A stretch of DNA of 64,000 nt from Candidatus Uhrbacteria bacterium (lineage in GTDB: Bacteria > Patescibacteriota > Patescibacteriia > UBA9934): positions 8,008 to 72,007 of the forward strand of contig CALRGY010000001.1 in NCBI GenBank assembly GCA_943358395.1. Direction: 5' to 3'. The position numbers were made by a program, and so were the translations under genes. Positions within the stretch are counted from its first letter, which is position 1; each line of letters starts with the position of its first letter. The notes under the pieces were generated by a model. It was not told the DNA's origin, made no database searches, and worked only from the letters and a program-made list of their open reading frames with translations. This document shows, piece after piece, positions 114 to 53,534 of this stretch.

Positions 114-926
114 ATGTTGAACGCTCTTCTTTCCATTATTCACGTCGATCTCTTACTCTGGTGTGAAGCCGCACTCATCGGCATTCTCCTCATCGGTGCA
201 TTCCTTACGAGTTTGGGCACATCGATGAAGAAGATGACGATCGCCTCAGGCGTTCTTCAGTCGGCGCTTCCCGTTATTCTCTTCATTGCTGCATTACGTG
301 TTCTTCGTTCTCTTGATGTCGATGCAGAACAATTTTTCCAGTATTTCGGCATCCTGCTTTTGCTTTCAGCCATTACGGGATTCATTTGGAAAACATCACG
401 AAAGAGTACGCTAGAACTTTCTCGCCTTCAGCACATCGGTCTCGTCGCATTCATGATCGGTGCTGGCCCTGCTGGGGCGATTCCTGCAATGATTCATCTC
501 TTCGGGCAAGCGATTGGTCACTCGGCGTTGTGGTACGCCATGCAGCGCAAGGAATCGATCGCGGCACATCGGGGAATTCGATTCTCTGTCATTGCGCTCA
601 TCGCAGCAATGTTCGGCGCACCGTTTTCAATGCTGTTTGTGAGCGAGCTTGTCGGAATCGGCTATGCATTGCAAGCGCATACCGCTCTTGCACTTGGCGT
701 GTTTGCAGCAGTCGTCGTTATGAATATTCTTGTGATGCGAAGGGTGTTGAATTTCTTCGCCGAGCCACGGTCGGAATCTGTATTACCGATGACAAAAAAT
801 GAAAAGGTCTTTACCGGTGTACTTGCTGCTCATGCGGTAATCCTCTTTGGCGCTGGAACATATCTCCTTACACAGCCCGGTATTCAATTCGCTGTTACCG
901 TTGCACAGAATATTGCAGCGCTCTAG
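114..926 (+). CDS. hypothetical polytopic membrane protein
   Basis: 270-aa ORF with several hydrophobic segments and no recognisable catalytic motif. Confidence 0.4.
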   Translation: MLNALLSIIHVDLLLWCEAALIGILLIGAFLTSLGTSMKKMTIASGVLQSALPVILFIAALRVLRSLDVDAEQFFQYFGILLLLSAITGFIWKTSRKSTLELSRLQHIGLVAFMIGAGPAGAIPAMIHLFGQAIGHSALWYAMQRKESIAAHRGIRFSVIALIAAMFGAPFSMLFVSELVGIGYALQAHTALALGVFAAVVVMNILVMRRVLNFFAEPRSESVLPMTKNEKVFTGVLAAHAVILFGAGTYLLTQPGIQFAVTVAQNIAAL

Positions 927-930
927 CCCC

Positions 931-3867
931 ATGTCGTCCCTCCTCGATAATCTCAATGCCGAGCAGCAGGCGGCAGTCACGCATGGCGAAGGGCCACTCA
1001 TGATTATTGCTGGCGCAGGAACAGGGAAGACGACGGTGATTACCAAGCGCATCGCGTGGCTCGTCGAACAGGGGAAAGCAATGCCTGAGAATATTCTTGC
1101 CCTTACCTTCACCGATAAAGCAGCGAATGAAATGGAAGAGCGTGTTGATGTGTTGTTACCAATGGGATACGTCGACCTTTCTATTTCCACATTTCATGCG
1201 TTTTGTGAAAAGGTTTTGCGCGAACACGGCGTCGATATCGGCATTCCGCAAGATTTTACTGTGGCATCGGAAGTGGACGGTTGGCTGTTCATGCGTCGTC
1301 ATCTTGCCGATTTCGCCCTCGATTACTATAAACCACGAGGAACACCAACGAAGTTTTTTAAGGTGTTATTGTCACATTTTTCACGAGCAAAAGATGAAGG
1401 CATTACGCCGGAGCACTACATTGACCACGTTGAAGCTCAGATTTCGGCGATCACTTCCGGATCGGAAGAAGCGTTCGATGCATTGCCAGAGGAAGAGCGA
1501 CTAGAGTGGATGAAACACAGGGAGGTCGGGCGTGCCTACAAAACGTATCAAGACATTCTCATTGCCGAAGACGCGCTCGATTTCGGTGATCTTCTCGCGT
1601 ACACCGTTGAACTTTTCAAAACACGCCCCAACATTCTTGCAGAATATCGCAAACGTTTTACCTATATCGTCGTTGACGAGTTTCAAGACACGAATAGCGT
1701 GCAGTACGAGCTCGTAAAGCTTCTTGCATCGCCAAGAAATAATCTGACGATCGTGGGTGACGATGATCAGGCGATTTACAAGTTCCGCGGAGCAGCACTC
1801 GCAAACATTCTTACGTTCCGATCAGATTTCCCAGATACAACAAAGATCGTGCTCGTTCATAATTATCGGAGCGGTCGAAGTATTCTTGATGCTGCATATG
1901 CATCGATTACCAAGAATAATCCGCATCGGCTTGAAGTGTCGGAAGGATTATCGAAACAATTGATTTCGAATATCGAACACGCTGGAAACGTGCATCACAT
2001 TCATGCGGCGACATTGGAAGATGAGGTTGCTACTGTCGTCGAAACGATCACGAAGCTTCACGATGAGTCTGGAGCGAACTGGAAAGACTTCGCGATCCTT
2101 GCGCGTGGCAATGATCACGTCGATCCGTTTCTTGAAGCATTGGAACGTGCTGGCATTCCGTACCGTTTCATGGCGCTTTCCGGCTTGTACACCATGCCGA
2201 TTATTCTGGATGCCATCAGCTATCTTCGTGTCATCGCTGCACCGCACGACTCACCATCGTTGTACCGCATTCTCTCTCATCCCCGATTGGGATTATCGCA
2301 AGAAGATCTCACGGCGCTCATGTTCTATGCTCGTCGGAAGGGAATGAGTCTCTTCGATTTGCTGACGTATGCCGACGCTGCACGCATTTCGATGACCGGT
2401 CGAAACACCATCATCGATCTCCAACAGAAACTTGCCGAGCTCCGAAACAAAGCAAAGCGATTACCGATCACTGAATTATTCGTGGTGATGATGAAAGAGA
2501 CGGGATTGCTTGGCGATTGCCAGCACGCTTCGGAAATGGAGCAGCAAGAATTGTATCGATTCCTTGAACGTTTCTTTAATCGCCTGAAGCGATTCGTTGC
2601 GATGAATGATGACGCAACGTTGCCGCGATTCATCGAGGAGTTTGATGCAGAGCGCGCGGCAGGGGAAAGTGGCGCCGTGGCGCAAGATCCAGAAGAAGGA
2701 CCTGACGTTGTATCGGTCATGACCGTTCATGGATCGAAAGGCTTAGAGTTCCGATACGTTTTTGTGATCAATCTCGTCGAACAACGTTTTCCATCGGTAT
2801 CACGATCACAAGCGATTGATTTTCCTCCGGGATTAATGGGTGAGGAAATCGAAGGGAATGATCATGTCGCCGAAGAGCGTCGGTTGCTGTATGTAGCGAT
2901 GACGCGGGCAAAAGAGGGGTTGTACCTGATGAGCGCTGAAGATTACGGCGGTTCACGAAAGCGAAAAGTTTCGCGATTCCTCGACGAGCTTGGATACACG
3001 AATACGGTGACGATGACGCGACCGAGCAGTATCGCCGATGCACTCGCTTTGGAAATCGGGAAAAAGAAAACCGGTGATGCGAATATTCATATTCCTGACA
3101 AAATCAGTTTTTCGCAGATTGCGGCATTCAGTACATGTCCGTTGCAATACAAGTATGCACATATCATTGGTGTGCCGTCGTACGGCAAGCATCAGATGAG
3201 CTTTGGAAAGTCGATGCACAACGCGTTGCAAGCCTTCATGGAGCGCATTGTTGCCTCGAGTGCAGCGCATCAGGTGACATTGTTTAACGCATCAAGTGAT
3301 ACCGTGGCTCTTCCGACTCTGCACGATCTTCTGGAGATGTATGCTCGATCGTGGATCGATGAATGGTACCCGGACGATGCTACGCGGGATGAATATCGGA
3401 ATCGTGGTACAGAGATCATGAAAGAATATTATCGCGTTGTTACTGAAAATCCTCCTTCACCGAAATTTATCGAGAAAGGATTCACGCTGAAGATCGATGG
3501 TATCTTGGTGAAGGGGAGAATCGATCGCATCGACGACGTGGAGGGTGGTATCGAAATCATCGATTACAAAACTGGTCAACCAAAAGAAAAACTCGATTGG
3601 GACGACAGGCGGCAGTTAATTCTCTACGCGATTGCTGCAGAAGAAAGCTTCGTTCCACCCCTCGTCGTCAAAAAGCTTACGTACTATTATCTCGAATCGA
3701 ATACTGCGGTGAGTTTTGAGCCGAAAGACGCGGAAAAGGAAAAGCTGAAGCTCCAGATTCGGGAAAGTATGGCAAAGATTCGTGAATCAACATTTTCTGC
3801 CACGCCGGGGCCACACTGCCAATATTGTGATTTTAAAGACATTTGCCCGTATGCAAGAGCCGGTTAA
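931..3867 (+). CDS. UvrD/PcrA-family helicase fused to a C-terminal Cas4/AddB-type PD-(D/E)xK Fe-S nuclease domain
   Basis: Walker A GAGTGKTT, motif II VDEFQDTN, TVHGSKGLEF, LLYVAMTRAKE; C-terminus carries GRIDRIDD, IIDYKTG and a Cys cluster C(x)n...CQYCDFKDIC. Start taken at ATG 931 (MSSLLDNLNAEQQ) inside the longer ORF 847..3867. Confidence 0.8.
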   Translation: MSSLLDNLNAEQQAAVTHGEGPLMIIAGAGTGKTTVITKRIAWLVEQGKAMPENILALTFTDKAANEMEERVDVLLPMGYVDLSISTFHAFCEKVLREHGVDIGIPQDFTVASEVDGWLFMRRHLADFALDYYKPRGTPTKFFKVLLSHFSRAKDEGITPEHYIDHVEAQISAITSGSEEAFDALPEEERLEWMKHREVGRAYKTYQDILIAEDALDFGDLLAYTVELFKTRPNILAEYRKRFTYIVVDEFQDTNSVQYELVKLLASPRNNLTIVGDDDQAIYKFRGAALANILTFRSDFPDTTKIVLVHNYRSGRSILDAAYASITKNNPHRLEVSEGLSKQLISNIEHAGNVHHIHAATLEDEVATVVETITKLHDESGANWKDFAILARGNDHVDPFLEALERAGIPYRFMALSGLYTMPIILDAISYLRVIAAPHDSPSLYRILSHPRLGLSQEDLTALMFYARRKGMSLFDLLTYADAARISMTGRNTIIDLQQKLAELRNKAKRLPITELFVVMMKETGLLGDCQHASEMEQQELYRFLERFFNRLKRFVAMNDDATLPRFIEEFDAERAAGESGAVAQDPEEGPDVVSVMTVHGSKGLEFRYVFVINLVEQRFPSVSRSQAIDFPPGLMGEEIEGNDHVAEERRLLYVAMTRAKEGLYLMSAEDYGGSRKRKVSRFLDELGYTNTVTMTRPSSIADALALEIGKKKTGDANIHIPDKISFSQIAAFSTCPLQYKYAHIIGVPSYGKHQMSFGKSMHNALQAFMERIVASSAAHQVTLFNASSDTVALPTLHDLLEMYARSWIDEWYPDDATRDEYRNRGTEIMKEYYRVVTENPPSPKFIEKGFTLKIDGILVKGRIDRIDDVEGGIEIIDYKTGQPKEKLDWDDRRQLILYAIAAEESFVPPLVVKKLTYYYLESNTAVSFEPKDAEKEKLKLQIRESMAKIRESTFSATPGPHCQYCDFKDICPYARAG

Positions 3868-4198
3868 ACGTCGCAGAAGTTCACTCACGCAAATAAGCAA
3901 AATGCTGGAAGGCACGCTAAAACGCCACGGCATTACGAAGCAAGTCACCGCGGCGATCATTGTAGACCGGGCAAAAGAAATTCTTGCGGAAATGGTTGCC
4001 GGCTCACCGCTCGCGCAAGATGTCCGCGTTTCCAGCTACGCCTCTGGCATTCTTATTCTTGGCTGTGACAACGCTGCCGCAACCTTCGACATCGACGGCA
4101 TGATCCCAACGTTGCTCTCCCGCATCCAATCAGAAATCCCCGAAGCCGATATCACAAAAATCATCGCACGGGTACAAAAGGAGAAGGGGAATTTTTGA
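3851..4198 (+). CDS. DUF721/DciA-like protein (putative replicative-helicase loader)
   Basis: About 115 aa matching the DUF721 pattern (RAKEILAEMVAGSPLAQDVRVSSYASGILILGCDNAAATFDI...); lies directly downstream of the helicase-nuclease gene; the start could instead be ATG 3902. Confidence 0.45.
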   Translation: MQEPVKRRRSSLTQISKMLEGTLKRHGITKQVTAAIIVDRAKEILAEMVAGSPLAQDVRVSSYASGILILGCDNAAATFDIDGMIPTLLSRIQSEIPEADITKIIARVQKEKGNF

Positions 4199-24588: not shown

Positions 24589-25296
24589 ATGTCTCTTGCA
24601 GAAGAAGCGATCCTCTTCGCAAAGCACAACAAAAAAGAAATCTCCCGCCGGCTGACGAGTCTGGAAGAATACCCACCCAGCGATTCACCCGTCACCATAT
24701 TCATGGCCGGTTCGCCAGGGGCAGGAAAAACAGAGTATTCAAAAAGTTTACTCGCCTACCTCATAAAAAACACAAGTGATCGACCTATTCGTATTGATAG
24801 CGACGAGCTTCGCGGGGAAATTCCCGGATACACAGGGGAAAATTCATCGGAAATGCAGGGGGCTGTCTCCATTCTCCTGAGCGAAATGTACGACCGTGCA
24901 TTAAAGAACCGACAAACCGCTATTATCGACGGGACGTTATCACATTACGGAAAGGCTAAAGAGAACATCGAACGGTCTCTCAAGCGCAATCGGCAAGTGC
25001 TTATTTTCTACATCTACCAGCATCCAGAAGTCGCATGGCAGTTTACCGTTGCACGAGAGCACATTGAGGGACGAAACATTCCAAAACGTGCGTTTATTGA
25101 AAAATTTCTCGGCTCAAAAGCAACCGTCAATCAGATTTATCGGGAATTCAGCGACCGCATAACGCTCTTCTTGGCAAGAAAAAACTTCCAAACGCACGCC
25201 ATTGAAACAGTAGAAATCGTGAGTCCTCAACATTCGGGATTGGACGCATATCTCCCGGAAACATATACTGAAGAGGAATTAGCAAAATTACTATGA
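24589..25296 (+). CDS. zeta-toxin-like P-loop kinase (Zeta_toxin/AAA_33 family)
   Basis: Walker A GSPGAGKTE with following DxD-type motifs; length and architecture resemble zeta/PezT UNAG-kinase toxins. Confidence 0.4.
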   Translation: MSLAEEAILFAKHNKKEISRRLTSLEEYPPSDSPVTIFMAGSPGAGKTEYSKSLLAYLIKNTSDRPIRIDSDELRGEIPGYTGENSSEMQGAVSILLSEMYDRALKNRQTAIIDGTLSHYGKAKENIERSLKRNRQVLIFYIYQHPEVAWQFTVAREHIEGRNIPKRAFIEKFLGSKATVNQIYREFSDRITLFLARKNFQTHAIETVEIVSPQHSGLDAYLPETYTEEELAKLL

Positions 25297-25657: not shown

Positions 25658-27098
25658 ATGCCGCTCACCCTTTTCTGGCTCATTGCCAGTTTCTTCCTTG
25701 GGTGTTCGCAAGAACCCCAAACCATCGTGTACGTCATCGCGGGTGCCCCCCCCTTCTGCGGTTATTTCGCAGGAGGAAGGAGCATTTGCCGAGGACGCAC
25801 CGGTGGAAACTCTCACCGACGCCCCCGCTGCCTATGATGGCGGCAACGGAGACGCATGCGATCTCGACGGGATCGATCCCTATGATCCCGAAAAAGTCAT
25901 CGCTTACGAGATCGTGAATCTCACCGACGAGCAGATCGCAGAGCTCGAGAGCATTGGATACTCATGGTGGGATACCTATTCGCAAATCCCAGAAGCTACT
26001 GTCAATGTCGACATCAACATAACAGTGAGTGAATGCGAAACAGTTTCCTTCACCGATGTAAACCTCGAGATCGGGCGGGAAATGGGTTATGTCGCCCCCT
26101 CTGCCAGCGGAGAAACAAGCTGGCGAGTGGACTATAACGACAGTAATTCCGCTCAAAAAATCGGTGGGTACGACAACGCGAGATGGTGGGCAGAAATCTA
26201 CAGCGGTCCGGTAGCGGAACCGTTTCTGTACCAATACGCCATCAAGTACTTACCGGAAACGCGTGGTCGACGATCTGCGTGGATGACGCTCTCAACGAAT
26301 TATTGGCCTGCGAATTTCGCGGCTGCCTATAACGCGTTTGAACCGTACAGTGAAGACATGATGGATCGGGATTACGGGAAAAACGGGTGGATCTCCATGT
26401 ACGAAGGCGACCCCGCGTACATGACCTGCCAAGTCGGAACCTGCGACGACACGCGCCTCAATGCGTGTTTGACCAAAGTTTACGACATCGAAGCCCTGGA
26501 TGCATCCGATTCACTCGTCGCAGAAACCGGTGACTGCTTCGACTGGTCCAACATCGCAGCAACATACGCTTGGGAGGTCTACTTCAGCCACTGGGACGGA
26601 TTCATGAGTCCGCACAATGGCTACGTAGAAGAATTGGGAGATTCGGCTTCGCCGGACACATCTCGATTCAGCCTCCGAATCGCAGGCGTGGATCTGGTAA
26701 ACCCCAACTGGGTAAGTGTTGAGGAGGTCACGTTTTACTCGTGGTCGACTCTCTACCCACCCTGCTGGAAGGATCAGTCTGAAGGTGGTTGCAGAGCGAT
26801 GCTCGTCGCCGATCTGCAGATCCTAATCGAAGCAGGACGAAGCGGAAAGATGGCGAGTGACCTCGACAAGGTTGCTGCATCCCGCCAAGCCCTCGGGCTC
26901 TGGTGGGAAGGGGTCGACGAGGGCTGGTACAACGACGAACGGGACTGGCTCACCGCCAGACCCGATTACGTCGAAATGGCCCTCACCGATGCTCTCGACC
27001 CCTGCAACGACTGGACTGCCGCAGGGTACAACCCCTGGGACACCGGTCTTGCAGGAGAATGTGGGGACACCGGGTTCATCGATACCGGAAAACCGTAA
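25658..27098 (+). CDS. secreted, possibly lipid-anchored W/Y/D-rich protein, frameshifted at a C8 tract (phase-OFF or sequencing error)
   Basis: ATG 25658 encodes the signal peptide MPLTLFWLIASFFLGC in frame 2. The long ORF continues in frame 0 (25683..27098). Deleting one C from the C8 run at 25746-25753 joins them: ...AGAPPSAVISQEEGAFAED... Confidence 0.55.
25746..25753 (+). repeat. C8 homopolymer tract inside the coding region
   Basis: Eight consecutive C at the signal-peptide/mature-protein junction; the same C8 tract is found at 27329-27336 upstream of the paralogue. Confidence 0.9.
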
Positions 27099-28166: not shown

Positions 28167-28754
28167 TTAGTCTTTGATCTTGGGCAGAATCTCTTTTTGG
28201 TATCTCTCAATACACTCTTCGATCACATTCACTGCTTCGTCCGCGTCGTAGAAGCCGAGGACTTTGCAGGTGCCTGGCTTTTTCAGGTGTTTGTAGAATT
28301 CGAAGTAGTGTGCGGTTTCTTTTGCCCAGTGCTCGCCGAGGTCTGTATATGACGTGATGTGATCAGCGCGCTTGTCGTCGGAAAGCACGCAAATTACTTT
28401 GTCGTCGGTTTCTCCCCCGTCTTCAAATTTCATGATGCCGATGACGCGGACTTCCACGAGCGATCCTGGAATAAGTGGCTCGACAACATTCGCGACGAGA
28501 ATATCCAGCATGTCGTTATCCTGATCCCACGTTTGAGGGATTAAGCCGTACACCGTTGGATACGCTAACGAAGAATACCCCACGCGGTCGAGCTTCAAGT
28601 GACCCGTTTCCGTAATAAACTCGTATTTATTAATACTGCCAGCATTGATTTCCACCAATCCGTTCAACACACGCTTTTCCTTATCTGCCCATGGAGAGAG
28701 CAAGTGCAGCAAGTTCGGCATGAATTTGTGAATCGGCACATCAAGATTTGCCAT
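28167..28754 (-). CDS. ppa: inorganic pyrophosphatase (family I)
   Basis: YPTVYGLIPQTWDQDNDMLDILV and DDKVI blocks typical of soluble PPase. Confidence 0.85.
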   Translation of the reverse strand: MANLDVPIHKFMPNLLHLLSPWADKEKRVLNGLVEINAGSINKYEFITETGHLKLDRVGYSSLAYPTVYGLIPQTWDQDNDMLDILVANVVEPLIPGSLVEVRVIGIMKFEDGGETDDKVICVLSDDKRADHITSYTDLGEHWAKETAHYFEFYKHLKKPGTCKVLGFYDADEAVNVIEECIERYQKEILPKIKD

Positions 28755-28850
28755 AGTTTTCGAAAAAAGAATGAAGAATTCCTACCAGGAATGATGCGTC
28801 CCCAACTCTTTCGTGTCAACGAGGCAGTTTTTCGATATACTGGGAGGCAT

Positions 28851-30221
28851 ATGAAGCATCGCTATTCTTTGTTCATTCTTCCTGCTGTTCTTGCGGCATT
28901 CCTTCTTCCATCCTCATCCCTCGCCTTCGACCCCAACTACATCCTTTCCGACGAAGACCTGACCGATGCGCAATCGATGGATCTGAATCAGATCCAAGCT
29001 TTTCTGGAACGCGGAACATTGGCGACGTACCAAGCCCCAGACTGGGAAGGGAGAACACGCTATGCTGCAGAAATTATTTGGCGCACAGCGCAAGCACACA
29101 ACATCAATCCTCGATTCCTTTTAGTGCTCCTGCAAAAAGAACAAAGCCTTATTGAAGATGCAGACCCAACCCAGAAACAATATGACTGGGCGACGGGATA
29201 CGGTGTGTGTGACAGCTGCTCGATGAACGATGGAGCATTGGCGCGCTGGCAAGGATTTGGAAAACAAGTGAATTCTGCAGCGATGCAATTTACGGAAGGC
29301 TACATGGTGGACATCGAAAAAAACGGTGTGACCGCAGGGAAATACGGCCCAAACATTCCAGTGACCATCGACAAAACCACCGTTACTCCAGAAAACGCTG
29401 CCACTGCCGCAATGTACGCCTACACGCCGCACATTCACGGCAATAAAAACTTTGTCGCGATTTGGGACAAATGGTTTGGCAAAGAATATCCAAACGGAAC
29501 CCTTCTCCAAGCTGCGGGTGATGAAGGCGTTTGGCGCATTGAACAGGGGTATCGCCGCCCTATTACCAGCAAAGCTGCACTCACATCCCGCTATAACAGC
29601 GCATTCATCATTACCGTTTCAAAAACCACTCTTGAGCAATACCCCACCGGCACACCAATCTCGTTACCGAATTATTCCCTTGTGGAAGACGAAAACGGGA
29701 ATCGATATCTTTTAGTGGACGACGGCATGCGCCACATTGCAAGCCTGGAAGCATTTCGCAACATCGGCTTTTCTGAAGATGAACTCGTGGAAATTACCGC
29801 AGCCGAAGTTGCGGAATATGCCGTCGGAACCCCCATTACCATTGCAACACAAGACCCAACGGGAAAAGTCGTCAAACTCTCTACGAATGGCGCAATGTTT
29901 TACCTGAAAGACGGCATTCGCCAAGCTATTCTTGACGAAGCGGTGCTCACAGCGAACTTTCCAAATGCCACCGTGGAGAAAGCTCTGCCCGTGGAAATCG
30001 AACAATATCGCGAAGGTGCATTCCTCAAGCTTCCCGATGGAACCCTCGTTCGATCCATCGAAAACCCAACCGTGTACGTTGTTGCCGACGGGGAACGCCA
30101 CGCCATTCCCAGCGAATCGATATTTCTTGATTACGGCTACGAATGGCCAAACATCATCTTCGTTCAAGACGACGTGCTGAACCTCCATAAAGTCGGCACC
30201 GACCTTGGAACATCGGCATAG
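28851..30221 (+). CDS. secreted hypothetical protein
   Basis: Signal peptide MKHRYSLFILPAVLAAFLLPSSSLA; no recognisable domain; start taken at ATG 28851 with GGGAGG upstream, inside ORF 28599..30221. Confidence 0.5.
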   Translation: MKHRYSLFILPAVLAAFLLPSSSLAFDPNYILSDEDLTDAQSMDLNQIQAFLERGTLATYQAPDWEGRTRYAAEIIWRTAQAHNINPRFLLVLLQKEQSLIEDADPTQKQYDWATGYGVCDSCSMNDGALARWQGFGKQVNSAAMQFTEGYMVDIEKNGVTAGKYGPNIPVTIDKTTVTPENAATAAMYAYTPHIHGNKNFVAIWDKWFGKEYPNGTLLQAAGDEGVWRIEQGYRRPITSKAALTSRYNSAFIITVSKTTLEQYPTGTPISLPNYSLVEDENGNRYLLVDDGMRHIASLEAFRNIGFSEDELVEITAAEVAEYAVGTPITIATQDPTGKVVKLSTNGAMFYLKDGIRQAILDEAVLTANFPNATVEKALPVEIEQYREGAFLKLPDGTLVRSIENPTVYVVADGERHAIPSESIFLDYGYEWPNIIFVQDDVLNLHKVGTDLGTSA

Positions 30222-30240
30222 TATATAACCTATCTTATCG

Positions 30241-30364
30241 AGGACTTTCTCATTTTAGGCTAGTTTCGATGAAGATCGAGGAAAATTCGTGAGACGTACT
30301 TCATGGTACGTTGAACGATTTTCCGATGATCTGAGTCGAAAATAGACAAAATGAGGAAGGACTA
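30241..30364. repeat. 125-bp palindromic dispersed element, copy 4
   Basis: aggactttctcatttt...cgtgagacgtacttcatggtacgttgaacg...aaaatgaggaaggacta. Confidence 0.85.
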
Positions 30365-31163
30365 CATTTCTATGATCGTTTTTGCTGGAATTGTGCCATG
30401 CTCACCGCTACTTCTTCCATCGGTAAACCCCGAACGAGTTGGGCTACTTGAAAAAACGCGCAACGCCATGCGTGAACTGTCTGAAGAGCTTTTCGCTGCG
30501 CATCCCGACACCATCGTGCTCTTTTGTGAACACACGCAATCCCCTGCAGACGCATTCGCCATGAATGTTGCAGACCCATATACCGCAAGCCTCGCAGCGT
30601 TTGGAGACTTAGGCTACACGCAAACATATCACCCGGATTTCATGCTTGCAGACAAAGCTCAACGCGATCTGCGTGGCGGCGGCGTTCCTATCACAATGAT
30701 CACAGAAGACGCACTTCCCTTTGGGGCAACCGTTCCCCTGGAATTCCTTCGCGAGCATCTTCCTTCGGCTCGCATTGTACCGATCGCGCCATGTGGATTA
30801 TCCGCGAAAGAACATTTCGACTTTGGCGCAGCGTTGAACAACACGTTAGTAGAAAGCCCGAAACGCATCGCCATTATTGCAGCAGGAGATTGCTCTCACA
30901 CCCGCTCAACCGAGGCTCCCGACGGGCTCCATGCAGAAGGAAAACAATCGGACGATCTGCTCGAAACACTCATTGCCCAAAAAAATACCGCAGGGCTTTT
31001 GCAGTTCGACGCCACACTTTTGCATGAAGGAAAAGACGGAGCATACCGTCAAATCGTTATGCTCTTCGGCGCATTGGATGGATCACCCGTCGAAGCACGC
31101 ATCCTTTCTCACGAAGCGCCACTCGGAATCGGTCAGATCGTTGCCGAGCTCATTCTCCGATAA
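30351..31163 (+). CDS. MEMO1 / AmmeMemoRadiSam-B-like (class III extradiol dioxygenase fold) protein
   Basis: About 265 aa with conserved His, Asp and Cys positions (…CEHTQSP…, …AAGDCSHTRS…); the true start is probably ATG 30372 (MIVFAGIV) because the first codons lie in the repeat. Confidence 0.4.
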   Translation: MRKDYISMIVFAGIVPCSPLLLPSVNPERVGLLEKTRNAMRELSEELFAAHPDTIVLFCEHTQSPADAFAMNVADPYTASLAAFGDLGYTQTYHPDFMLADKAQRDLRGGGVPITMITEDALPFGATVPLEFLREHLPSARIVPIAPCGLSAKEHFDFGAALNNTLVESPKRIAIIAAGDCSHTRSTEAPDGLHAEGKQSDDLLETLIAQKNTAGLLQFDATLLHEGKDGAYRQIVMLFGALDGSPVEARILSHEAPLGIGQIVAELILR

Positions 31164-31169
31164 TCCACT

Positions 31170-32918
31170 GTGTTCGCTCACGTCTATCCCCTCATAAAGC
31201 TCCCCCGCCGTTTTGGGGTATTCGATTATCGCATCCCAGAACATCTTGTCGTGCAGGTTGGCGACGTCATTCAGATTCCTTTTCGCCATCGGACGATTCT
31301 GGGCGTTGTGAAATCGATCACTGCATCATCGAACGAGCCACGAATTCTCGAGATCGCATCAGGTTCGATCGGCTTCAGCATGCCAGACATCGATCTCAAG
31401 CGCATAGAGTCCATCGCATCAGGGCTCGGGCAATCCGTCTCATCGATTCTTGCCGTTGCCTACGAAGGCCTCAGCCCCTTCCCCGCATCGGCAGAATCTT
31501 TGCATCGGCAGACCAATACCGCAACGTCATCACCAAGGATCGATAAAGAAACAATCACCACAGTGCACCATCTCCTCGAACGGCTCAAAATCGATCGCAT
31601 GATGAATGTGATGTGTGACGACGAGACATTCTGCGTGCTTGCACATGCACTGTGTAAAACAATCACCGATCAGATCCTCATTATTGTTCCCAGGGAACGT
31701 GATGCGCGAATCATTGCAAACATCCTCACCTCATTCTCCCCAATGATTCTGACGGGGAAAGTACCCCCCCGCGATCGAAATCGCATCATCCGATCCTGGA
31801 GCAAAGGCTCAATTCGATTCCTCATCAGCACACGGCAAGGAGCATTGATCACGCCCCAATCCCTGGGCGCCGTTCTCGTCTACCAATCCGGGTGCAGCGA
31901 TCATCACAGCCCTCTTCGCAACCCTCACATTCATGCCGTACGCGCCGCAGAAGCATTAGCAACATCAGCAGAATCAATCTGTATTCTTGCGGATGCTCTT
32001 CCGCCACCACACGCATCACTGCCACTGTGCGCTCATCACGATGGGGCAAACGTGCAGATCATCGACGTCATGCACAAAGGCGAACGCTCGCCATATCCCC
32101 TCATCAGTACTACGCTCCTTACCGCAATCGAAACCGCCCTCTCCGATCATCGGAAAGTGCTTCTCTCGTTTAATCGTAAGGGCGTGGCAAAGCGCATAGA
32201 ATGCAAAGCGTGTGGCCACGTTCCCTTTTGCGGAACGTGTGGCAGCTTACCAGTGGTACGCATCGATGATTTGCTCTGTGCAGCATGCGGAACGGAAATG
32301 TGGAAGCCAACAACGTGCCCAGCATGTGGCTCTCCAAAAATCGGATTAAAGTCCATTGGCGGCGCCAAAATCGCTGATGATCTCAAGAAAGCATTTCCTT
32401 ATGCAATCATCGGACATATTGAAAAAGGACGTATCGACCGCACTGCCGACATTCTCCTAGCAACAGAATATTTCTTTTCCAGCGTCATCGAACCTTTTGC
32501 TCCATGGGGGTTTGGCGTGGTAGCAGAAATTCTTGGCGACCTTGCATTTACCCCGGGCGACTATCGCGGCGCCGAAAACGCCGCCCGCCAGATTGCCCGC
32601 CTGCGCAACTATGCCAAACACGAAGGCGCGGAATGCATTATTCAAACGCTCACTCGTGACCGCATGCAATCACTCCTTGGCGCCGAATACGTCAACGCCA
32701 CAGAGCTCAACACACGAAAAACGTATTCCCTCCCACCATTTGGCGTCATCATCGAATTTGAAGGGGGCACAAAAGCGGATTTCCCCCAAGAAATCGCATC
32801 ACAAATCATAGAAAAGGACGGTCTTTTCATCGCAAAAATTGATCATCTTCTCTTTACGCATTGGCAAACCCTCTTCCCGATCATCCCGGATTCGATTAAA
32901 ATACGGATATACGAATAA
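31170..32918 (+). CDS. priA: PriA-like primosomal protein lacking recognisable helicase motifs
   Basis: PriA N-terminal 3'-DNA-binding domain (FDYRIP...VGDVIQIPFRHRTILGVV) and the Zn-ribbon CxxC...CxxC...CxxC...CxxC; no Walker A (GxGKT) or DExH motif; 582 aa. Confidence 0.55.
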   Translation: MFAHVYPLIKLPRRFGVFDYRIPEHLVVQVGDVIQIPFRHRTILGVVKSITASSNEPRILEIASGSIGFSMPDIDLKRIESIASGLGQSVSSILAVAYEGLSPFPASAESLHRQTNTATSSPRIDKETITTVHHLLERLKIDRMMNVMCDDETFCVLAHALCKTITDQILIIVPRERDARIIANILTSFSPMILTGKVPPRDRNRIIRSWSKGSIRFLISTRQGALITPQSLGAVLVYQSGCSDHHSPLRNPHIHAVRAAEALATSAESICILADALPPPHASLPLCAHHDGANVQIIDVMHKGERSPYPLISTTLLTAIETALSDHRKVLLSFNRKGVAKRIECKACGHVPFCGTCGSLPVVRIDDLLCAACGTEMWKPTTCPACGSPKIGLKSIGGAKIADDLKKAFPYAIIGHIEKGRIDRTADILLATEYFFSSVIEPFAPWGFGVVAEILGDLAFTPGDYRGAENAARQIARLRNYAKHEGAECIIQTLTRDRMQSLLGAEYVNATELNTRKTYSLPPFGVIIEFEGGTKADFPQEIASQIIEKDGLFIAKIDHLLFTHWQTLFPIIPDSIKIRIYE

Positions 32919-33085: not shown

Positions 33086-33556
33086 ATGCCAAGACCCGTT
33101 CTCCATAACCCAGATCCAAAGCTTCGTATCAAAAGCGAACCGGTTTCGGCTGAACGCATCAATACGCCGGAAATGACGTTGCTCATTCAAGAGCTCAAAG
33201 AAACGATGGTAAAAGAAAACGGGGTAGGAATTGCTGCGCCGCAAATTGGAGTACACGATCGAGTCATCATCGCCGAAATCGATGACGTTGCTACGGCATT
33301 CATCAATCCCGTTATTACGGAGCGATCGTTCCGAAAGATTGATAGTGAGGAGGGTTGCTTATCTGTGCCAGGAACCTGGGGCGTCGTAGAACGCTGCCGT
33401 TCGGTTACCGTAACGGCACTCAATGAATCTGGCGAGCCGGTGACAATTAAAGCTCAAGGATTTGATGCGACGATTTTTCAGCATGAAATTGATCACTTGG
33501 ACGGTATTCTTTTCATCGACCGTGCAGAAGATATTCAAAAAGCATCGCGCCTCTAA
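33086..33556 (+). CDS. def: peptide deformylase
   Basis: GIAAPQIG, EGCLSVPG and HEIDHLDG motifs; start at MPRPVLHNPDPKLR. Confidence 0.9.
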   Translation: MPRPVLHNPDPKLRIKSEPVSAERINTPEMTLLIQELKETMVKENGVGIAAPQIGVHDRVIIAEIDDVATAFINPVITERSFRKIDSEEGCLSVPGTWGVVERCRSVTVTALNESGEPVTIKAQGFDATIFQHEIDHLDGILFIDRAEDIQKASRL

Positions 33557-33559
33557 ACT

Positions 33560-34483
33560 ATGCGCGTTCTTTTTTTTGGTACTCCAACCCTTGCCTGCGC
33601 CATTCTTGAAGCCCTCATCGCCGATCATGACATCGACGTCGTTGGCGTGGTGTGCCAGCCCGATGAGCCCGTTGGACGAAAAGCGATTCTTACCGCTCCA
33701 CCCACAAAGCACGTTGCGATGACTCATGGAATTCCCGTGTTCCAACCAATAAAACTGAAAGACGAATCTTTTCTTGCCGCCATCGACTCCCTTCACGCTG
33801 ATGTCGCTGTCGTACTGGCATACGGCAGAATTCTGCCGTCGGCACTCCTTAATCGTATCCCTCACGGCTTCGTGAATGTTCACCCATCATTACTACCCAA
33901 ATATCGTGGTCCCTCTCCAATTCAATCGGCGATTCTTGCTGGGGATTCCGTCACTGGAGTTTCGATTATGGTACTCGACACCGGAATGGACACCGGCGCA
34001 CTCCTTACACAATCAGTGATCGACATCGCTTCAGACGAGACATCAGAAACACTCACAGAAAAAGTGATCGATGTAAGCGCTCCCCTCCTGATCACAACGC
34101 TCAAAGGATTCTTCGCAGGATCGATCACGCCGATTCCCCAAAGCACCGAAGGCGTTTCGGTCTGCAACATGCTTTCTCGCGAGGATGGGAAAATATCGTG
34201 GAATGAATCTGTGCACGTCATTGATCGAAAGATTCGTGCATTGAATCCTTGGCCGGGTACGTCAACAACGTGGATTATCGGAGAGAAAGAAATCGGAGTG
34301 AAGATTCTGAAGGTGGCATTGATGGAGGGATCGAGGGGGGCTCACATCGGAATCCCTCGATTCGAATCTGGGGTACTACTCATCGACGCTGCCGATGGGA
34401 CACTGGAGATTCTGGAGCTTCAACCCGCTGGAGGAAACCGAATGAACGGAAGCAGTTTTGCGCGCGGGTATTTGAAATCGTAA
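33560..34483 (+). CDS. fmt: methionyl-tRNA formyltransferase
   Basis: Formyltransferase N-terminal domain (HPSLLPKYRGPSPIQ) and the C-terminal tRNA-binding domain. Confidence 0.88.
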   Translation: MRVLFFGTPTLACAILEALIADHDIDVVGVVCQPDEPVGRKAILTAPPTKHVAMTHGIPVFQPIKLKDESFLAAIDSLHADVAVVLAYGRILPSALLNRIPHGFVNVHPSLLPKYRGPSPIQSAILAGDSVTGVSIMVLDTGMDTGALLTQSVIDIASDETSETLTEKVIDVSAPLLITTLKGFFAGSITPIPQSTEGVSVCNMLSREDGKISWNESVHVIDRKIRALNPWPGTSTTWIIGEKEIGVKILKVALMEGSRGAHIGIPRFESGVLLIDAADGTLEILELQPAGGNRMNGSSFARGYLKS

Positions 34484-53460: not shown

Positions 53461-53534
53461 TGCGTCTGGCGTGATTCGAACACACGACCTCTTCCTTCGG
53501 AGGGAAGCGCTCTATCCAGCTGAGCTACAAACGC
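53461..53534 (-). tRNA. tRNA-Arg (anticodon CCG)
   Basis: Reverse complement GCGTTTGTAGCTCAGCTGGATAGAGCGCTTCCCTCCGAAGGAAGAGGTCGTGTGTTCGAATCACGCCAGACGCA folds with a 7-bp acceptor stem, D-arm GCTC/GAGC, anticodon stem CTTCC/GGAAG with loop CTCCGAA, and a GTTCGAATC T-loop; CCA is not encoded. Confidence 0.85.

What the first reader, a model, noticed from the sequence alone, without database searches (positions are those of the whole stretch)
31170..32918. PriA-like protein retaining the 3'-DNA-binding and zinc-ribbon domains but lacking Walker A and DExH helicase motifs
The N-terminus (FDYRIP…VGDVIQIPFRHRTILGVV) and the four-CxxC zinc-binding region are clearly PriA-like, but I cannot find GxGKT or a DExH box; the corresponding segments read …LILTGKVPPRD… and …VLVYQSG…. 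A DciA-like DUF721 protein is encoded at 3851-4198. This would be either a degenerate, non-motor PriA acting as a fork-recognition scaffold or a highly divergent helicase.
Basis: partly seen in the sequence, partly recalled or inferred. Interest (0 to 1): 0.5.

Follow-up and report, generated by a model that had tools for sequence, protein, structure and literature searches.

The report
ATPase-dead PriA in a Patescibacterium
This gene is the organism's copy of the replication-restart protein PriA, which keeps the parts that recognise a broken replication fork but has lost every residue needed to burn ATP, and the same loss is shared by hundreds of related ultra-small bacteria.

Summary
ORF 31170-32918 (+), 582 aa, is a real PriA homologue. 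The family profile matches PriA structures at E=2e-54. The AlphaFold model (pLDDT 91) superposes on E. coli and Klebsiella PriA with TM 0.72-0.75. The gene sits in the classic priA-def-fmt position.

It keeps the 3'-end-binding domain with its FDY motif, both RecA-like lobes as folds, the four CxxC pairs of the zinc region and a shortened C-terminal domain. No P-loop or DExH occurs anywhere.

By alignment:
- Walker A GSGKT is replaced by CDDET.
- Motif Ia PEIxLTPQ is replaced by PRERDARI.
- DEEH is replaced by QSGC.
- SAT is replaced by DAL.
- The arginine fingers GRAGR are replaced by YAKHE.

The gene is under purifying selection (dN/dS 0.14; 0.02 in the zinc region). About 200 representative clusters from Uhrbacteria/Patescibacteria share this state. 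Other Patescibacteria carry intact or partly eroded PriAs.

Best reading: a PriA pseudohelicase that senses forks without ATP and nucleates DnaB reloading, probably with the DciA encoded at 3851-4198.

The kind is known from Deinococcus radiodurans PriA (2015). This is a far more eroded variant in a lineage where I found no published description. Interest is moderate.

The parts
31170..32918 (+). priA* gene: the PriA pseudohelicase, 582 aa, GTG start, stop included
   Evidence: ORF. PriA homology. Purifying selection, dN/dS 0.136 against the 92%-identical orthologue L061.
31170..31469 (+). 3'-DNA-binding domain (aa 1-100) with LPRRFxxFDY
   Evidence: PF17764 hit at aa 15-62, found in 60 of 60 family members. 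F18, D19 and Y20 are 89-96% conserved in 202 proteins. pLDDT is above 90.
31470..31544 (+). Short disordered linker (aa 101-125) where canonical PriA has the winged-helix domain
   Evidence: pLDDT 48-77. dN/dS is about 1. The spacer from 3'BD to motif I is about 35-48 aa here against 114-127 aa in non-Patescibacteria PriAs.
31545..32039 (+). Pseudo-RecA lobe 1 (aa 126-290): the fold is kept and the catalytic motifs I, Ia, II and III are replaced
   Evidence: Alignments. AF2 beta-alpha-beta pattern. dN/dS 0.107.
31605..31637 (+). Motif I (Walker A) equivalent: NVMCDDETFCV in place of GVTGSGKTEVY. The lysine becomes glutamate and no glycines remain.
31872..31904 (+). Motif II (Walker B/DEEH) equivalent: VLVYQSGCSDH in place of IIIDEEHETSY
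32040..32744 (+). RecA-like lobe 2 (aa 291-525), interrupted by the zinc region. Motif V GTQMIAKG becomes ATEYFFSS.
   Evidence: dN/dS 0.05-0.13.
32202..32333 (+). Cysteine-rich region: four CxxC pairs, predicted to bind two zinc ions
   Evidence: The eight Cys columns are 88-92% conserved in the family. Lowest dN/dS of the protein, 0.022.
32598..32648 (+). Motif VI equivalent: RLRNYAKHEGAECIIQT in place of QVSGRAGRHELTGEVIVQT. Both arginine fingers are lost and the QT is kept.
32745..32915 (+). Shortened C-terminal domain: 57 aa after the LPP motif, against 87-100 aa in canonical PriA
   Evidence: No member hits Pfam PriA_C. dN/dS 0.22.
30351..31163 (+). LigB/Memo-like gene directly upstream, with 6 nt between its stop and the priA* start. 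Conserved neighbour.
   Evidence: PF02900. Present next to priA* in 60 of 61 loci.
33086..33556 (+). def (peptide deformylase), first gene downstream
   Evidence: PF01327. Found in 50 of 61 loci, the rest being cut by contig ends. Same order as beside the canonical Bacillus priA.
33560..34483 (+). fmt (methionyl-tRNA formyltransferase), second gene downstream
   Evidence: PF00551 and PF02911. Synteny.
3851..4198 (+). DciA-type helicase operator (DUF721), the presumed partner for DnaB loading. It is 27 kb from priA*.
   Evidence: PF05258, 28.7 bits against cut-off 24. ORF.

Best explanation
The gene is the positional orthologue of priA in a Uhrbacteria-type Patescibacterium (candidate phyla radiation), and it has become a pseudohelicase.

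What is shown:
- The protein keeps the PriA architecture: 3'BD, two RecA-like lobes, a two-zinc cysteine-rich insertion and a shortened CTD.
- The nucleotide-binding and hydrolysis residues of motifs I, II, III and VI, and the conserved residues of motifs Ia and V, are all replaced.
- The gene is under purifying selection.
- Its genomic position is conserved.
- The state is shared by a large clade.

What is inferred:
- The protein cannot bind or hydrolyse ATP, so it cannot translocate or unwind.
- It still recognises abandoned forks and D-loops. The FDY pocket of the 3'BD would bind the 3' end of the nascent leading strand. The lobe 2, zinc-region and CTD shell would hold lagging-strand template ssDNA, as in E. 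coli PriA.
- It serves as an ATP-independent landing pad that brings DnaB to the fork, most likely together with the DciA operator encoded in the same window.
- Where the lagging arm is duplex, other helicases with intact motifs would do the unwinding. The UvrD/AddA-like enzyme at 847-3867 is one candidate.
For: Homology and fold:
- The family profile matches PriA structures (4nl4/6dgd E=2.4e-54, 6dcr and 8fak about 1e-52).
- The AF2 model has pLDDT 91.1 and pTM 0.91.
- Foldseek's best hits are all PriA: 8fak_H E=7.9e-33 with TMq 0.72, 4nl4 with TMq 0.75, and the E. coli winged-helix-deletion PriA 6dcr with TMt 0.68-0.70. The next family, Mfd, is at 1e-9.

Loss of catalytic residues:
-. No P-loop or DExH occurs anywhere in the protein.
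- Catalytic columns are unconserved across 202 family members, while FDY, NRKG, QT, PP and the eight Cys are 89-99% conserved.
- No member hits Pfam DEAD, ResIII, Zn_ribbon_PriA or PriA_C. All 60 hit PriA_3primeBD.
- The score is below every NCBIfam PriA cut-off: TIGR00595 93.8 against 230.

Not a pseudogene:
- dN/dS is 0.136 at dS 0.34. Lobe 1 is 0.107, the zinc region 0.022 and the linker about 1.
- There are more than 200 representative clusters, with identity down to 25%.

Orthology:
- The order LigB-like, priA*, def, fmt is conserved in nearly all 61 loci.
- Canonical Bacillus priA and a less-eroded Patescibacteria priA sit in the same priA-def-fmt position.

Functional precedent:
- E. 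coli priA300 (K230R) abolishes ATPase and helicase activity yet behaves nearly like wild type, and supports PriA-PriB restart (PMC5778457).
- K230A PriA loads DnaB in vitro, and the CRR, HD2 and CTD form the ssDNA pore (PMC10175261).
- D. radiodurans PriA lacks ATPase and helicase activity but binds forks and DnaB (PMC4504706).
- DciA is present in the window.
Against: - No biochemistry exists for any member. Absence of ATPase activity is inferred from sequence only.
- I could not scan a complete genome of this lineage, so a second, canonical PriA elsewhere in the genome is not excluded.
- DciA lies 27 kb away, and no DnaB, SSB or other primosome gene is linked to priA* in the window. The partner assignment is therefore inference.
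- The CTD is shortened, and 16 related representatives lack the zinc region altogether. The E. coli pore model may not transfer unchanged.
- priA* diverges faster than its neighbours: in L042, 28% identity against 41-50% for the neighbours. This shows relaxed constraint relative to housekeeping genes.
Confidence: 0.75

Rival explanations
1. It is still an active motor that binds and hydrolyses NTP through a non-canonical site, that is, a highly divergent helicase.
For: Both RecA-like lobes are retained with high model confidence. Lobe 1 is under purifying selection, dN/dS 0.107. Some lobe 1 residues specific to this family are nearly invariant: P174, R177, D178, G196, R203, W210.
Against: - No P-loop, Walker B acid pair, SAT or arginine finger is present.
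- The Walker A lysine position is a glutamate flanked by two aspartates (CDDET), which would repel phosphate.
- The catalytic columns vary freely among 202 relatives, so no replacement site is fixed.
- The single substitution K230R already kills E. coli PriA ATPase (PMC5778457).
Confidence: 0.04
2. It is a decaying gene remnant with no function.
For: It diverges faster than its neighbours. The linker evolves neutrally. Domains are progressively lost along the family: winged helix, CTD length, and in some members the zinc region.
Against: - The 582-codon ORF is intact, and its orthologues are intact in 60 genomes at the same position.
- dN/dS is 0.136 overall and 0.022 in the zinc region.
- Nineteen residues are invariant and about 80 more are at least 90% conserved across 60 sequences down to 26% identity.
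- Small genomes of about 1 Mb (for example L042 on a 1.0-Mb chromosome) would not be expected to keep 1.7 kb of dead sequence.
Confidence: 0.02
3. It has taken on a new role. It would be a PriA-derived DNA- or protein-binding factor that no longer works in replication restart, for example a fork-protection, recombination or regulatory factor, or one tied to the co-transcribed def-fmt or LigB-like genes.
For: - The catalytic core and CTD are heavily remodelled.
- Conserved residues specific to this family appear, such as LPRRF, VPRERDA and TEYFFSS.
- Linkage to a LigB/Memo-like gene and an unknown secreted-looking protein is tight in all loci.
Against: - The 3'-end-recognition motif and the zinc region, the elements used for fork recognition, are the best conserved parts.
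- priA-def-fmt linkage is ancestral, not new.
- No other PriA candidate appears among the 46 window ORFs I scanned with Pfam, mostly those of at least 150 aa.
Confidence: 0.12
4. It is an extra paralogue that coexists with a canonical PriA encoded elsewhere in the genome. It would then be an accessory factor or a dominant regulator.
For: Motif-intact PriAs do exist in other Patescibacteria: 55 of 128. I could not search whole genomes of this lineage.
Against: - It occupies the ancestral priA-def-fmt slot.
- Each of the 60 genomes gave one locus.
- On the NJ tree the Walker-A-less proteins form one clade nested among the intact Patescibacteria PriAs, as expected for orthologues that diverged with their hosts.
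Confidence: 0.07

Closest known systems
Deinococcus radiodurans PriA, the characterised PriA pseudohelicase (Lopper, Boone and Morrow 2015, PMC4504706)
   Same: A PriA orthologue with non-consensus Walker A and B motifs. It was shown to lack ATPase and helicase activity while still binding ssDNA, fork DNA and DnaB. The proposed role is the same: restart initiation without unwinding.
   Different: - In Deinococcus-Thermus the change is subtle: GKT becomes GRT, with poor matches in motifs I and II. Here motifs I, Ia, II, III, V and VI are all unrecognisable.
- The winged-helix domain is absent here and the CTD is shortened.
- The lineage is different (Patescibacteria).
- Descent from a common pseudohelicase ancestor was not tested, and nothing here points to it.
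- No biochemistry exists for this family.
Canonical PriA replication-restart helicase (E. coli and K. pneumoniae; PDB 4nl4, 6dgd, 8fak; TIGR00595)
   Same: - Overall fold (TM 0.72-0.75).
- 3'BD with the FDY motif.
- A two-zinc CRR inserted in lobe 2.
- The NR[KR]G, QT and PP signatures.
- priA-def-fmt synteny, as in Bacillus.
   Different: - No ATP site.
- No winged-helix domain.
- CTD shorter by about 30-40 aa.
- The aromatic-rich loop next to motif II, which the alignment places at GWRYHARD (PMC5175346), reads RNPHIHAVR here.
- The score is below every PriA equivalog cut-off.
E. coli priA300 (K230R) and K230A/D engineered ATPase-dead PriA
   Same: These are the laboratory equivalent of the natural state proposed here. 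They are ATPase- and helicase-dead, yet competent for PriA-PriB restart in vivo and for DnaB loading in vitro.
   Different: They carry a single engineered substitution in an otherwise intact enzyme, and they depend on PriB, DnaT and DnaC. No PriB-, DnaT- or DnaC-like domain turned up among the window ORFs I scanned. The window encodes a DciA-type operator instead.
Motif-intact and partly eroded PriAs of other Patescibacteria (for example P0255 from the Parcubacteria group; P0308 and P0220)
   Same: Same short architecture without a winged-helix domain (3'BD-to-motif-I spacer about 44 aa), and the same synteny.
   Different: P0255-type proteins keep GSGKT, DEEH and GRxGR. P0308-type proteins have lost motifs I and VI but keep PE (motif Ia), DDEH and PriA_C. 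The window protein is at the most eroded end of this series.

Membership tests
PriA (replication restart protein / primosomal protein N') | N-terminal 3'-DNA-binding domain with the FDY 3'-end pocket motif | tested here: met
   PF17764 at aa 15-62, 32.3 bits against cut-off 22.7. Found in 60 of 60 family members. FDY is 89-96% conserved.
PriA (replication restart protein / primosomal protein N') | Two RecA-like lobes of an SF2 helicase core (the fold) | tested here: met
   AF2 pLDDT 91. Foldseek TM 0.72-0.75 to PriA structures over about 650 columns. Profile E=2.4e-54.
PriA (replication restart protein / primosomal protein N') | Catalytic helicase motifs I (GxGKT), II (DExH), III (SAT) and VI (GRxGR) | tested here: not met
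   These read CDDET, QSGC, DAL and YAKHE at the aligned positions. No such pattern occurs anywhere in the protein. The columns are unconserved family-wide. There are no PF00270 or PF04851 hits.
PriA (replication restart protein / primosomal protein N') | Cysteine-rich region (CxxC four times, two zinc ions) inserted in lobe 2 | tested here: met
   C345/348, C354/357, C370/373 and C383/386. They are aligned with the canonical ligands and 88-92% conserved. The Pfam Zn_ribbon_PriA model itself does not fire.
PriA (replication restart protein / primosomal protein N') | Winged-helix domain between the 3'BD and lobe 1 | tested here: not met
   A linker of about 25 residues with low pLDDT stands in its place. 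The domain is also absent from motif-intact Patescibacteria PriAs, so it is not universal to the family.
PriA (replication restart protein / primosomal protein N') | C-terminal domain (PF18074 PriA_C) | tested here: inconclusive
   A confidently folded 57-aa C-terminal module is present. It is 30-40 aa shorter than the canonical domain, and no member hits PF18074.
PriA (replication restart protein / primosomal protein N') | Score above the curated equivalog cut-off (TIGR00595 and the NF0040xx/NF0114xx models) | tested here: not met
   The best score is 93.8 bits against a cut-off of 230.35. All 14 PriA models score far below their cut-offs.
PriA (replication restart protein / primosomal protein N') | Orthologous genomic position (priA-def-fmt) | tested here: met
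   for this lineage. for Bacillus. for another Patescibacterium.
PriA pseudohelicase (D. radiodurans type) | PriA orthologue whose Walker A and B residues are incompatible with ATP hydrolysis | tested here: met
   The definition is taken from PMC4504706.
PriA pseudohelicase (D. radiodurans type) | Measured absence of ATPase and helicase activity, with fork-DNA binding retained | not testable with these tools
   This needs purified protein. Only sequence and model evidence is available here.
PriA pseudohelicase (D. radiodurans type) | Physical interaction with the cognate replicative helicase DnaB | not testable with these tools
   No DnaB gene is in the window, and no complex prediction tool is available.
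PriA pseudohelicase (D. radiodurans type) | Common descent with the Deinococcus-Thermus pseudohelicases | not tested
   No Deinococcus sequence was among the retrieved proteins. All Walker-A-less proteins found here cluster within Patescibacteria-type PriAs, which suggests an independent loss.

The most novel reading that the evidence does not exclude
A large block of Patescibacteria fixed an ATPase-dead PriA once and then eroded it stepwise. Motifs I and VI went first, then Ia and II, then part of the CTD, and in some lineages the whole zinc region. In these ultra-small episymbionts, replication restart would then need only ATP-independent fork recognition by a minimal PriA. That minimal PriA would hand DnaB directly to a DciA-type operator, with no PriB, DnaT, DnaC or DnaD. 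This would be a natural minimal restart primosome.
Probability: 0.35. Interest if true: 0.65.

Novelty: new variant of a known kind. Interest (0 to 1): 0.5.

Why it matters
[quoted passage not shown] This locus suggests the exception is much larger.

About 200 representative clusters (50% identity) of short PriA-like proteins have no ATPase motifs at all. All the named ones come from Uhrbacteria or Patescibacteria. Roughly half of a sample of 128 Patescibacteria-type PriAs lack Walker A.

If confirmed, several things follow:
- It is natural, evolution-scale support for the idea that PriA's core job is ATP-independent fork recognition and primosome nucleation.
- It offers a compact 582-aa PriA without a winged-helix domain for structural and biochemical work on how restart operates with DciA-type helicase operators. 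That question is described as open (PMC9825169; PMC5778457).
- It shows that the names these proteins carry in the source databases can mislead. Sources call some of them 'primosomal protein N' (replication factor Y)', 'helicase-related protein' or 'hypothetical protein'. These names either imply a helicase activity the proteins probably lack or miss the PriA relationship.

Tried and rejected
- Hidden or shifted ATP site. A regex scan for P-loop and DExH/D patterns anywhere in the protein found none. A few relatives match a loose [AG]xxxxGK[ST] pattern, but away from the motif I columns.
- Frameshift or mis-called start hiding motif I. Rejected: the ORF is continuous, the N-terminus aligns residue for residue with canonical PriA, and the orthologues begin with the same residues.
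- Pseudogene. Rejected by dN/dS and conservation.
- Literature. Four full-text searches (PriA with Patescibacteria; with 'candidate phyla radiation'; with Parcubacteria/Saccharibacteria/Uhrbacteria; and a replication restart/DciA/Walker A search) found nothing on PriA in this radiation. One hit concerned the phylum UBP6 and was unrelated.
- Taxon names for distant representatives. Two cluster look-ups gave few names. Those named were Uhrbacteria or Patescibacteria.
- Independent losses. I expected several. An NJ tree with Fitch parsimony instead gave one change, with all 122 Walker-A-less tips in one clade. Long-branch attraction could produce this result and the ladder-like order, so I treat single loss as unproven.
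- A second canonical priA in the same genome.
- Other primosome genes in the window. Pfam scans of 46 window ORFs, mostly those of at least 150 aa, found DciA and a UvrD/AddA-like helicase-nuclease. They found no DnaB, SSB, PriB, DnaT or DnaD.
- My recollection that actinobacterial PriAs are flagged as lacking helicase domains could not be checked here, so I did not use it.
Full report
**The object**

The window has an uninterrupted ORF at 31170-32918 (+), 582 codons with a GTG start. It begins 6 nt after the stop of the upstream gene.
- Pfam recognises only the PriA 3'-DNA-binding domain (aa 15-62, 32.3 bits, cut-off 22.7) and a weak Helicase_C match at aa 158-224.
- All 14 NCBIfam PriA models match, but far below their curated cut-offs. 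The best is TIGR00595 at 93.8 bits against 230.
- The single sequence finds the PriA crystal and cryo-EM chains at about 1e-13.
- A profile of 60 family members finds them at 2.4e-54, aligned from the 3'BD to the start of the C-terminal domain.
- An AlphaFold2 model built on that alignment is confident: mean pLDDT 91.1 and pTM 0.91. The only disordered stretch is aa 112-116.
- Foldseek's nine best PDB hits are all PriA. These include 8fak_H at E=7.9e-33 with TMq 0.72, 4nl4 with TMq 0.75, and the E. coli winged-helix-deletion construct 6dcr with TMt 0.68-0.70. The next family, Mfd, is at about 1e-9.

Homology to PriA is therefore not in doubt.

**What is kept and what is lost**

I aligned the protein with canonical PriAs from Bacillus, Lachnospiraceae and a gammaproteobacterial symbiont (MAFFT). 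The independent HMMER alignment to Klebsiella PriA gives the same register.

| Motif | Canonical | Window protein |
|---|---|---|
| I | GVTGSGKTEVY | NVMCDDETFCV (aa 146-156) |
| Ia | VLVPEIALTPQ | IIVPRERDARI |
| II | IIIDEEHETSY | VLVYQSGCSDH (aa 235-245) |
| III | LGSATPA | LADALPP |
| V | LLGTQMIAKGLDFP | LLATEYFFSSVIEPF |
| VI | QVSGRAGRHELTGEVIVQT | RLRNYAKHEGAECIIQT (aa 477-493) |

- The Walker A lysine position is a glutamate preceded by two aspartates, and none of the P-loop glycines remains.
- No P-loop, GK[ST] or DExH/D pattern occurs anywhere in the protein.
- The FDY motif of the 3'BD (aa 18-20) is kept, as are the NR[KR]G, QT and LPP signatures. So are all eight zinc-ligand cysteines: C345/348, C354/357, C370/373 and C383/386.
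- The winged-helix domain that follows the 3'BD in E. coli is replaced by a low-confidence linker of about 25 residues.
- The C-terminal domain has 57 residues after the LPP motif, against 87-100 in canonical proteins.
- One detail of the finding needs correcting.

**Is the loss real biology?**

The closest relative is 92% identical (locus L061).
- It gives dN/dS 0.136 at an unsaturated dS of 0.34.
- By domain: pseudo-RecA lobe 1 0.107, the second half of lobe 2 0.052, the zinc region 0.022, the CTD 0.22, and the linker about 1.
- A word-indexed search found 73 short relatives of 434-609 aa, none with a DEAD-domain hit.
- An exhaustive HMMER scan of 1.84 billion representatives listed 150 best hits. 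Almost all full-length ones are 480-645 aa.
- I took 202 short members and compared them column by column with 20 canonical PriAs. The catalytic positions have no consensus above the family background of 0.44. The Walker A K column is T at 24%. DEEH reads L32/R25/S50/G49. The two arginine-finger columns are L 43% and R 42%.
- In the same set, FDY is 89-96% conserved, N-R-K-G 78-97%, QT 89-99%, PP 94-99%, and the eight cysteines 88-92%.

The ATP site has therefore not been rebuilt in another form. It has been released from selection, while the rest of the protein has not.

**Orthology and lineage**

A scan of one genome per species with family peptides returned 60 loci.
- All come from Candidatus Uhrbacteria or Patescibacteria MAGs. 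Several third-party MAGs are titled 'uncultured Gammaproteobacteria' but carry the same locus.
- In these and in L061 the order is: unknown 540-aa protein, LigB/Memo-like, priA*, def, fmt, then an O-antigen-ligase-like gene on the other strand. The order holds wherever the contig allows: LigB-like 60 of 61, def 50, fmt 46.
- Canonical Bacillus priA lies in the same priA-def-fmt arrangement. So does a less-eroded Patescibacteria priA.

The window gene is therefore the positional orthologue of priA, not an added paralogue. I could not scan a whole genome of this lineage for a second copy.

**Wider picture in the radiation**

I ran a second search with a profile of the most distant short members. 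I classified its 118 listed full-length hits together with 10 reference sequences (128 in all) by three motifs: GK[ST] for I, DExH for II and GRxGR for VI.
- 55 were fully canonical.
- 59 failed all three tests.
- The rest were mixed.
- Intermediate signatures are common. One example is 'NLQxERHxLY / PEYFDVYN / DDEH / LSSPAPS', from proteins that NCBI names primosomal protein N' of the Patescibacteria group or Candidatus Parcubacteria.
- On a neighbour-joining tree of 209 sequences, all 122 Walker-A-less proteins form one clade nested among motif-intact Patescibacteria PriAs. Fitch parsimony gives a minimum of one change.
- The path to the window's clade reads as a ladder. The winged-helix domain is already absent in intact Patescibacteria PriAs (spacer about 44 aa against 114-127). 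Motifs I and VI are lost first. The Ia 'PE' and the II 'D[DE]xH' go next. The CTD then shortens from 87 to 75 to 57 aa.
- Sixteen representatives have also lost the zinc region cleanly.
- Ladder-like NJ topologies are what rate heterogeneity produces. I therefore report the graded series as an observation and the single-loss history as unproven.

**Mechanism**

What is shown is listed above. The rest is inference from established PriA biology.
- In E. coli, K230R (priA300) abolishes ATPase, helicase and translocase activity. Cells nevertheless behave much like wild type, and the PriA-PriB pathway works (PMC5778457).
- K230A PriA supports DnaB loading in vitro. Fork binding makes the CRR, HD2 and CTD close a pore around lagging-strand ssDNA and exposes a partner-docking face on the CRR (PMC10175261).
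- D. radiodurans PriA has GRT in place of GKT and lacks ATPase and helicase activity. It still binds fork DNA and DnaB directly (PMC4504706).

I therefore propose that the window protein recognises abandoned forks or D-loops without ATP and nucleates DnaB reloading. Recognition would use its 3'BD and its lobe 2, zinc-region and CTD shell. The zinc region is the most constrained part, as would be expected of a DNA-clamping or partner-docking element.

The window encodes a DciA-type helicase operator at 3851-4198 (PF05258). No PriB, DnaT, DnaC or DnaD appears among the ORFs scanned. Hand-off to DnaB with DciA is thus the most economical guess.

Forks whose lagging arm is duplex would need another helicase. 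A UvrD-type helicase fused to a PD-(D/E)XK nuclease, with an intact GAGTGKT, lies immediately upstream of DciA.

**Rivals**
- A cryptic active helicase is very unlikely, for the reasons given above (about 0.04).
- A dead gene is excluded by selection and conservation (about 0.02).
- A new role away from restart (about 0.12) and coexistence with a canonical copy (about 0.07) remain possible. Both are testable as listed in the next steps.

**Comparison and novelty**

As a kind, this is a PriA pseudohelicase, a category established experimentally for D. radiodurans.
- As a member of PriA, it meets the tests for the 3'BD, the RecA-like fold, the zinc region and synteny.
- It fails the tests for the catalytic motifs, the winged helix and the curated score cut-offs.
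- It differs from the Deinococcus case in degree, in architecture and in lineage. All motifs are erased rather than a few substitutions made. There is no winged helix and the CTD is short.
- I found no paper describing PriA in Patescibacteria or the candidate phyla radiation in the searchable library.
- The 2017 review names Deinococcus as the only exception to conservation of PriA helicase activity.

I rate it a new variant of a known kind, of moderate interest.

Noticed in passing
window 847-3867 (+) and 3851-4198 (+): A 1006-aa UvrD/PcrA-type helicase is fused to a C-terminal PD-(D/E)XK nuclease (AddA-like) and has an intact GAGTGKT Walker A. Its end overlaps the DciA ORF by 17 nt, so the DciA operator is probably co-transcribed with a repair helicase-nuclease.
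   Followed up: partly
window 31641-31841 (aa 158-224 of the PriA-like protein): In this family the Pfam Helicase_C model matches RecA lobe 1 (58 of 60 members). In canonical PriAs it matches lobe 2 after the zinc region (for example Bacillus aa 559-657). DEAD-box C-terminal domains in the PDB also match this lobe 1 stretch weakly.
   Followed up: partly
window 28599-30221 (+) and 30351-31163 (+): A protein of about 450-540 aa has no Pfam match and a signal-peptide-like N-terminus (MKHRYSLFILPAVLAAFLL...). A LigB/Memo-like protein follows it. The pair lies directly upstream of priA* in nearly every Uhrbacteria locus (58 and 60 of 61). The reason for this fixed linkage is unknown.
   Followed up: partly
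related proteins P0073, P0137, P0168, P0170, P0173, P0176 and others: Of 206 non-canonical PriA-like sequences retrieved, 16 have no cysteines in the zinc-region columns. In P0073 the alignment shows a clean excision between NK[KR]G and the following helix. Six more keep only four Cys. Even the zinc domain is therefore dispensable in some lineages.
   Followed up: partly
related proteins P0255, P0289, P0332, P0357 and others: Motif-intact Patescibacteria PriAs already lack the winged-helix domain. Their spacer from the 3'BD to motif I is about 44 aa, against 114-127 aa in non-Patescibacteria PriAs. Winged-helix loss therefore came before ATPase loss.
   Followed up: partly
loci L001, L006, L008, L009, L013, L042 and others: Many third-party MAG records are titled 'uncultured Gammaproteobacteria bacterium'. 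They carry the Uhrbacteria-type locus with identical synteny, and one is a 1.0-Mb chromosome. Their taxon labels look wrong.
   Followed up: no
loci L001-L061 against the window: priA* diverges faster than its neighbours. In L042, for example, priA* is 28% identical, against def 48%, fmt 41% and the upstream unknown protein 50%.
   Followed up: no
window 25683-27098 (+): A 471-aa ORF has no Pfam match and is acidic and rich in Trp and Tyr. It lies in a local GC-rich patch: 0.57 over 26-28 kb, against about 0.49 for the window.
   Followed up: no
window 24589-25296 (+): A zeta-toxin-family kinase gene (PF06414). The same family appears at the edge of the closest relative's contig, L061.
   Followed up: no
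window 53461-53534 (-): This is the only Rfam hit in the window at gathering threshold: one tRNA. The 64 kb contain no rRNA or riboswitch.
   Followed up: no
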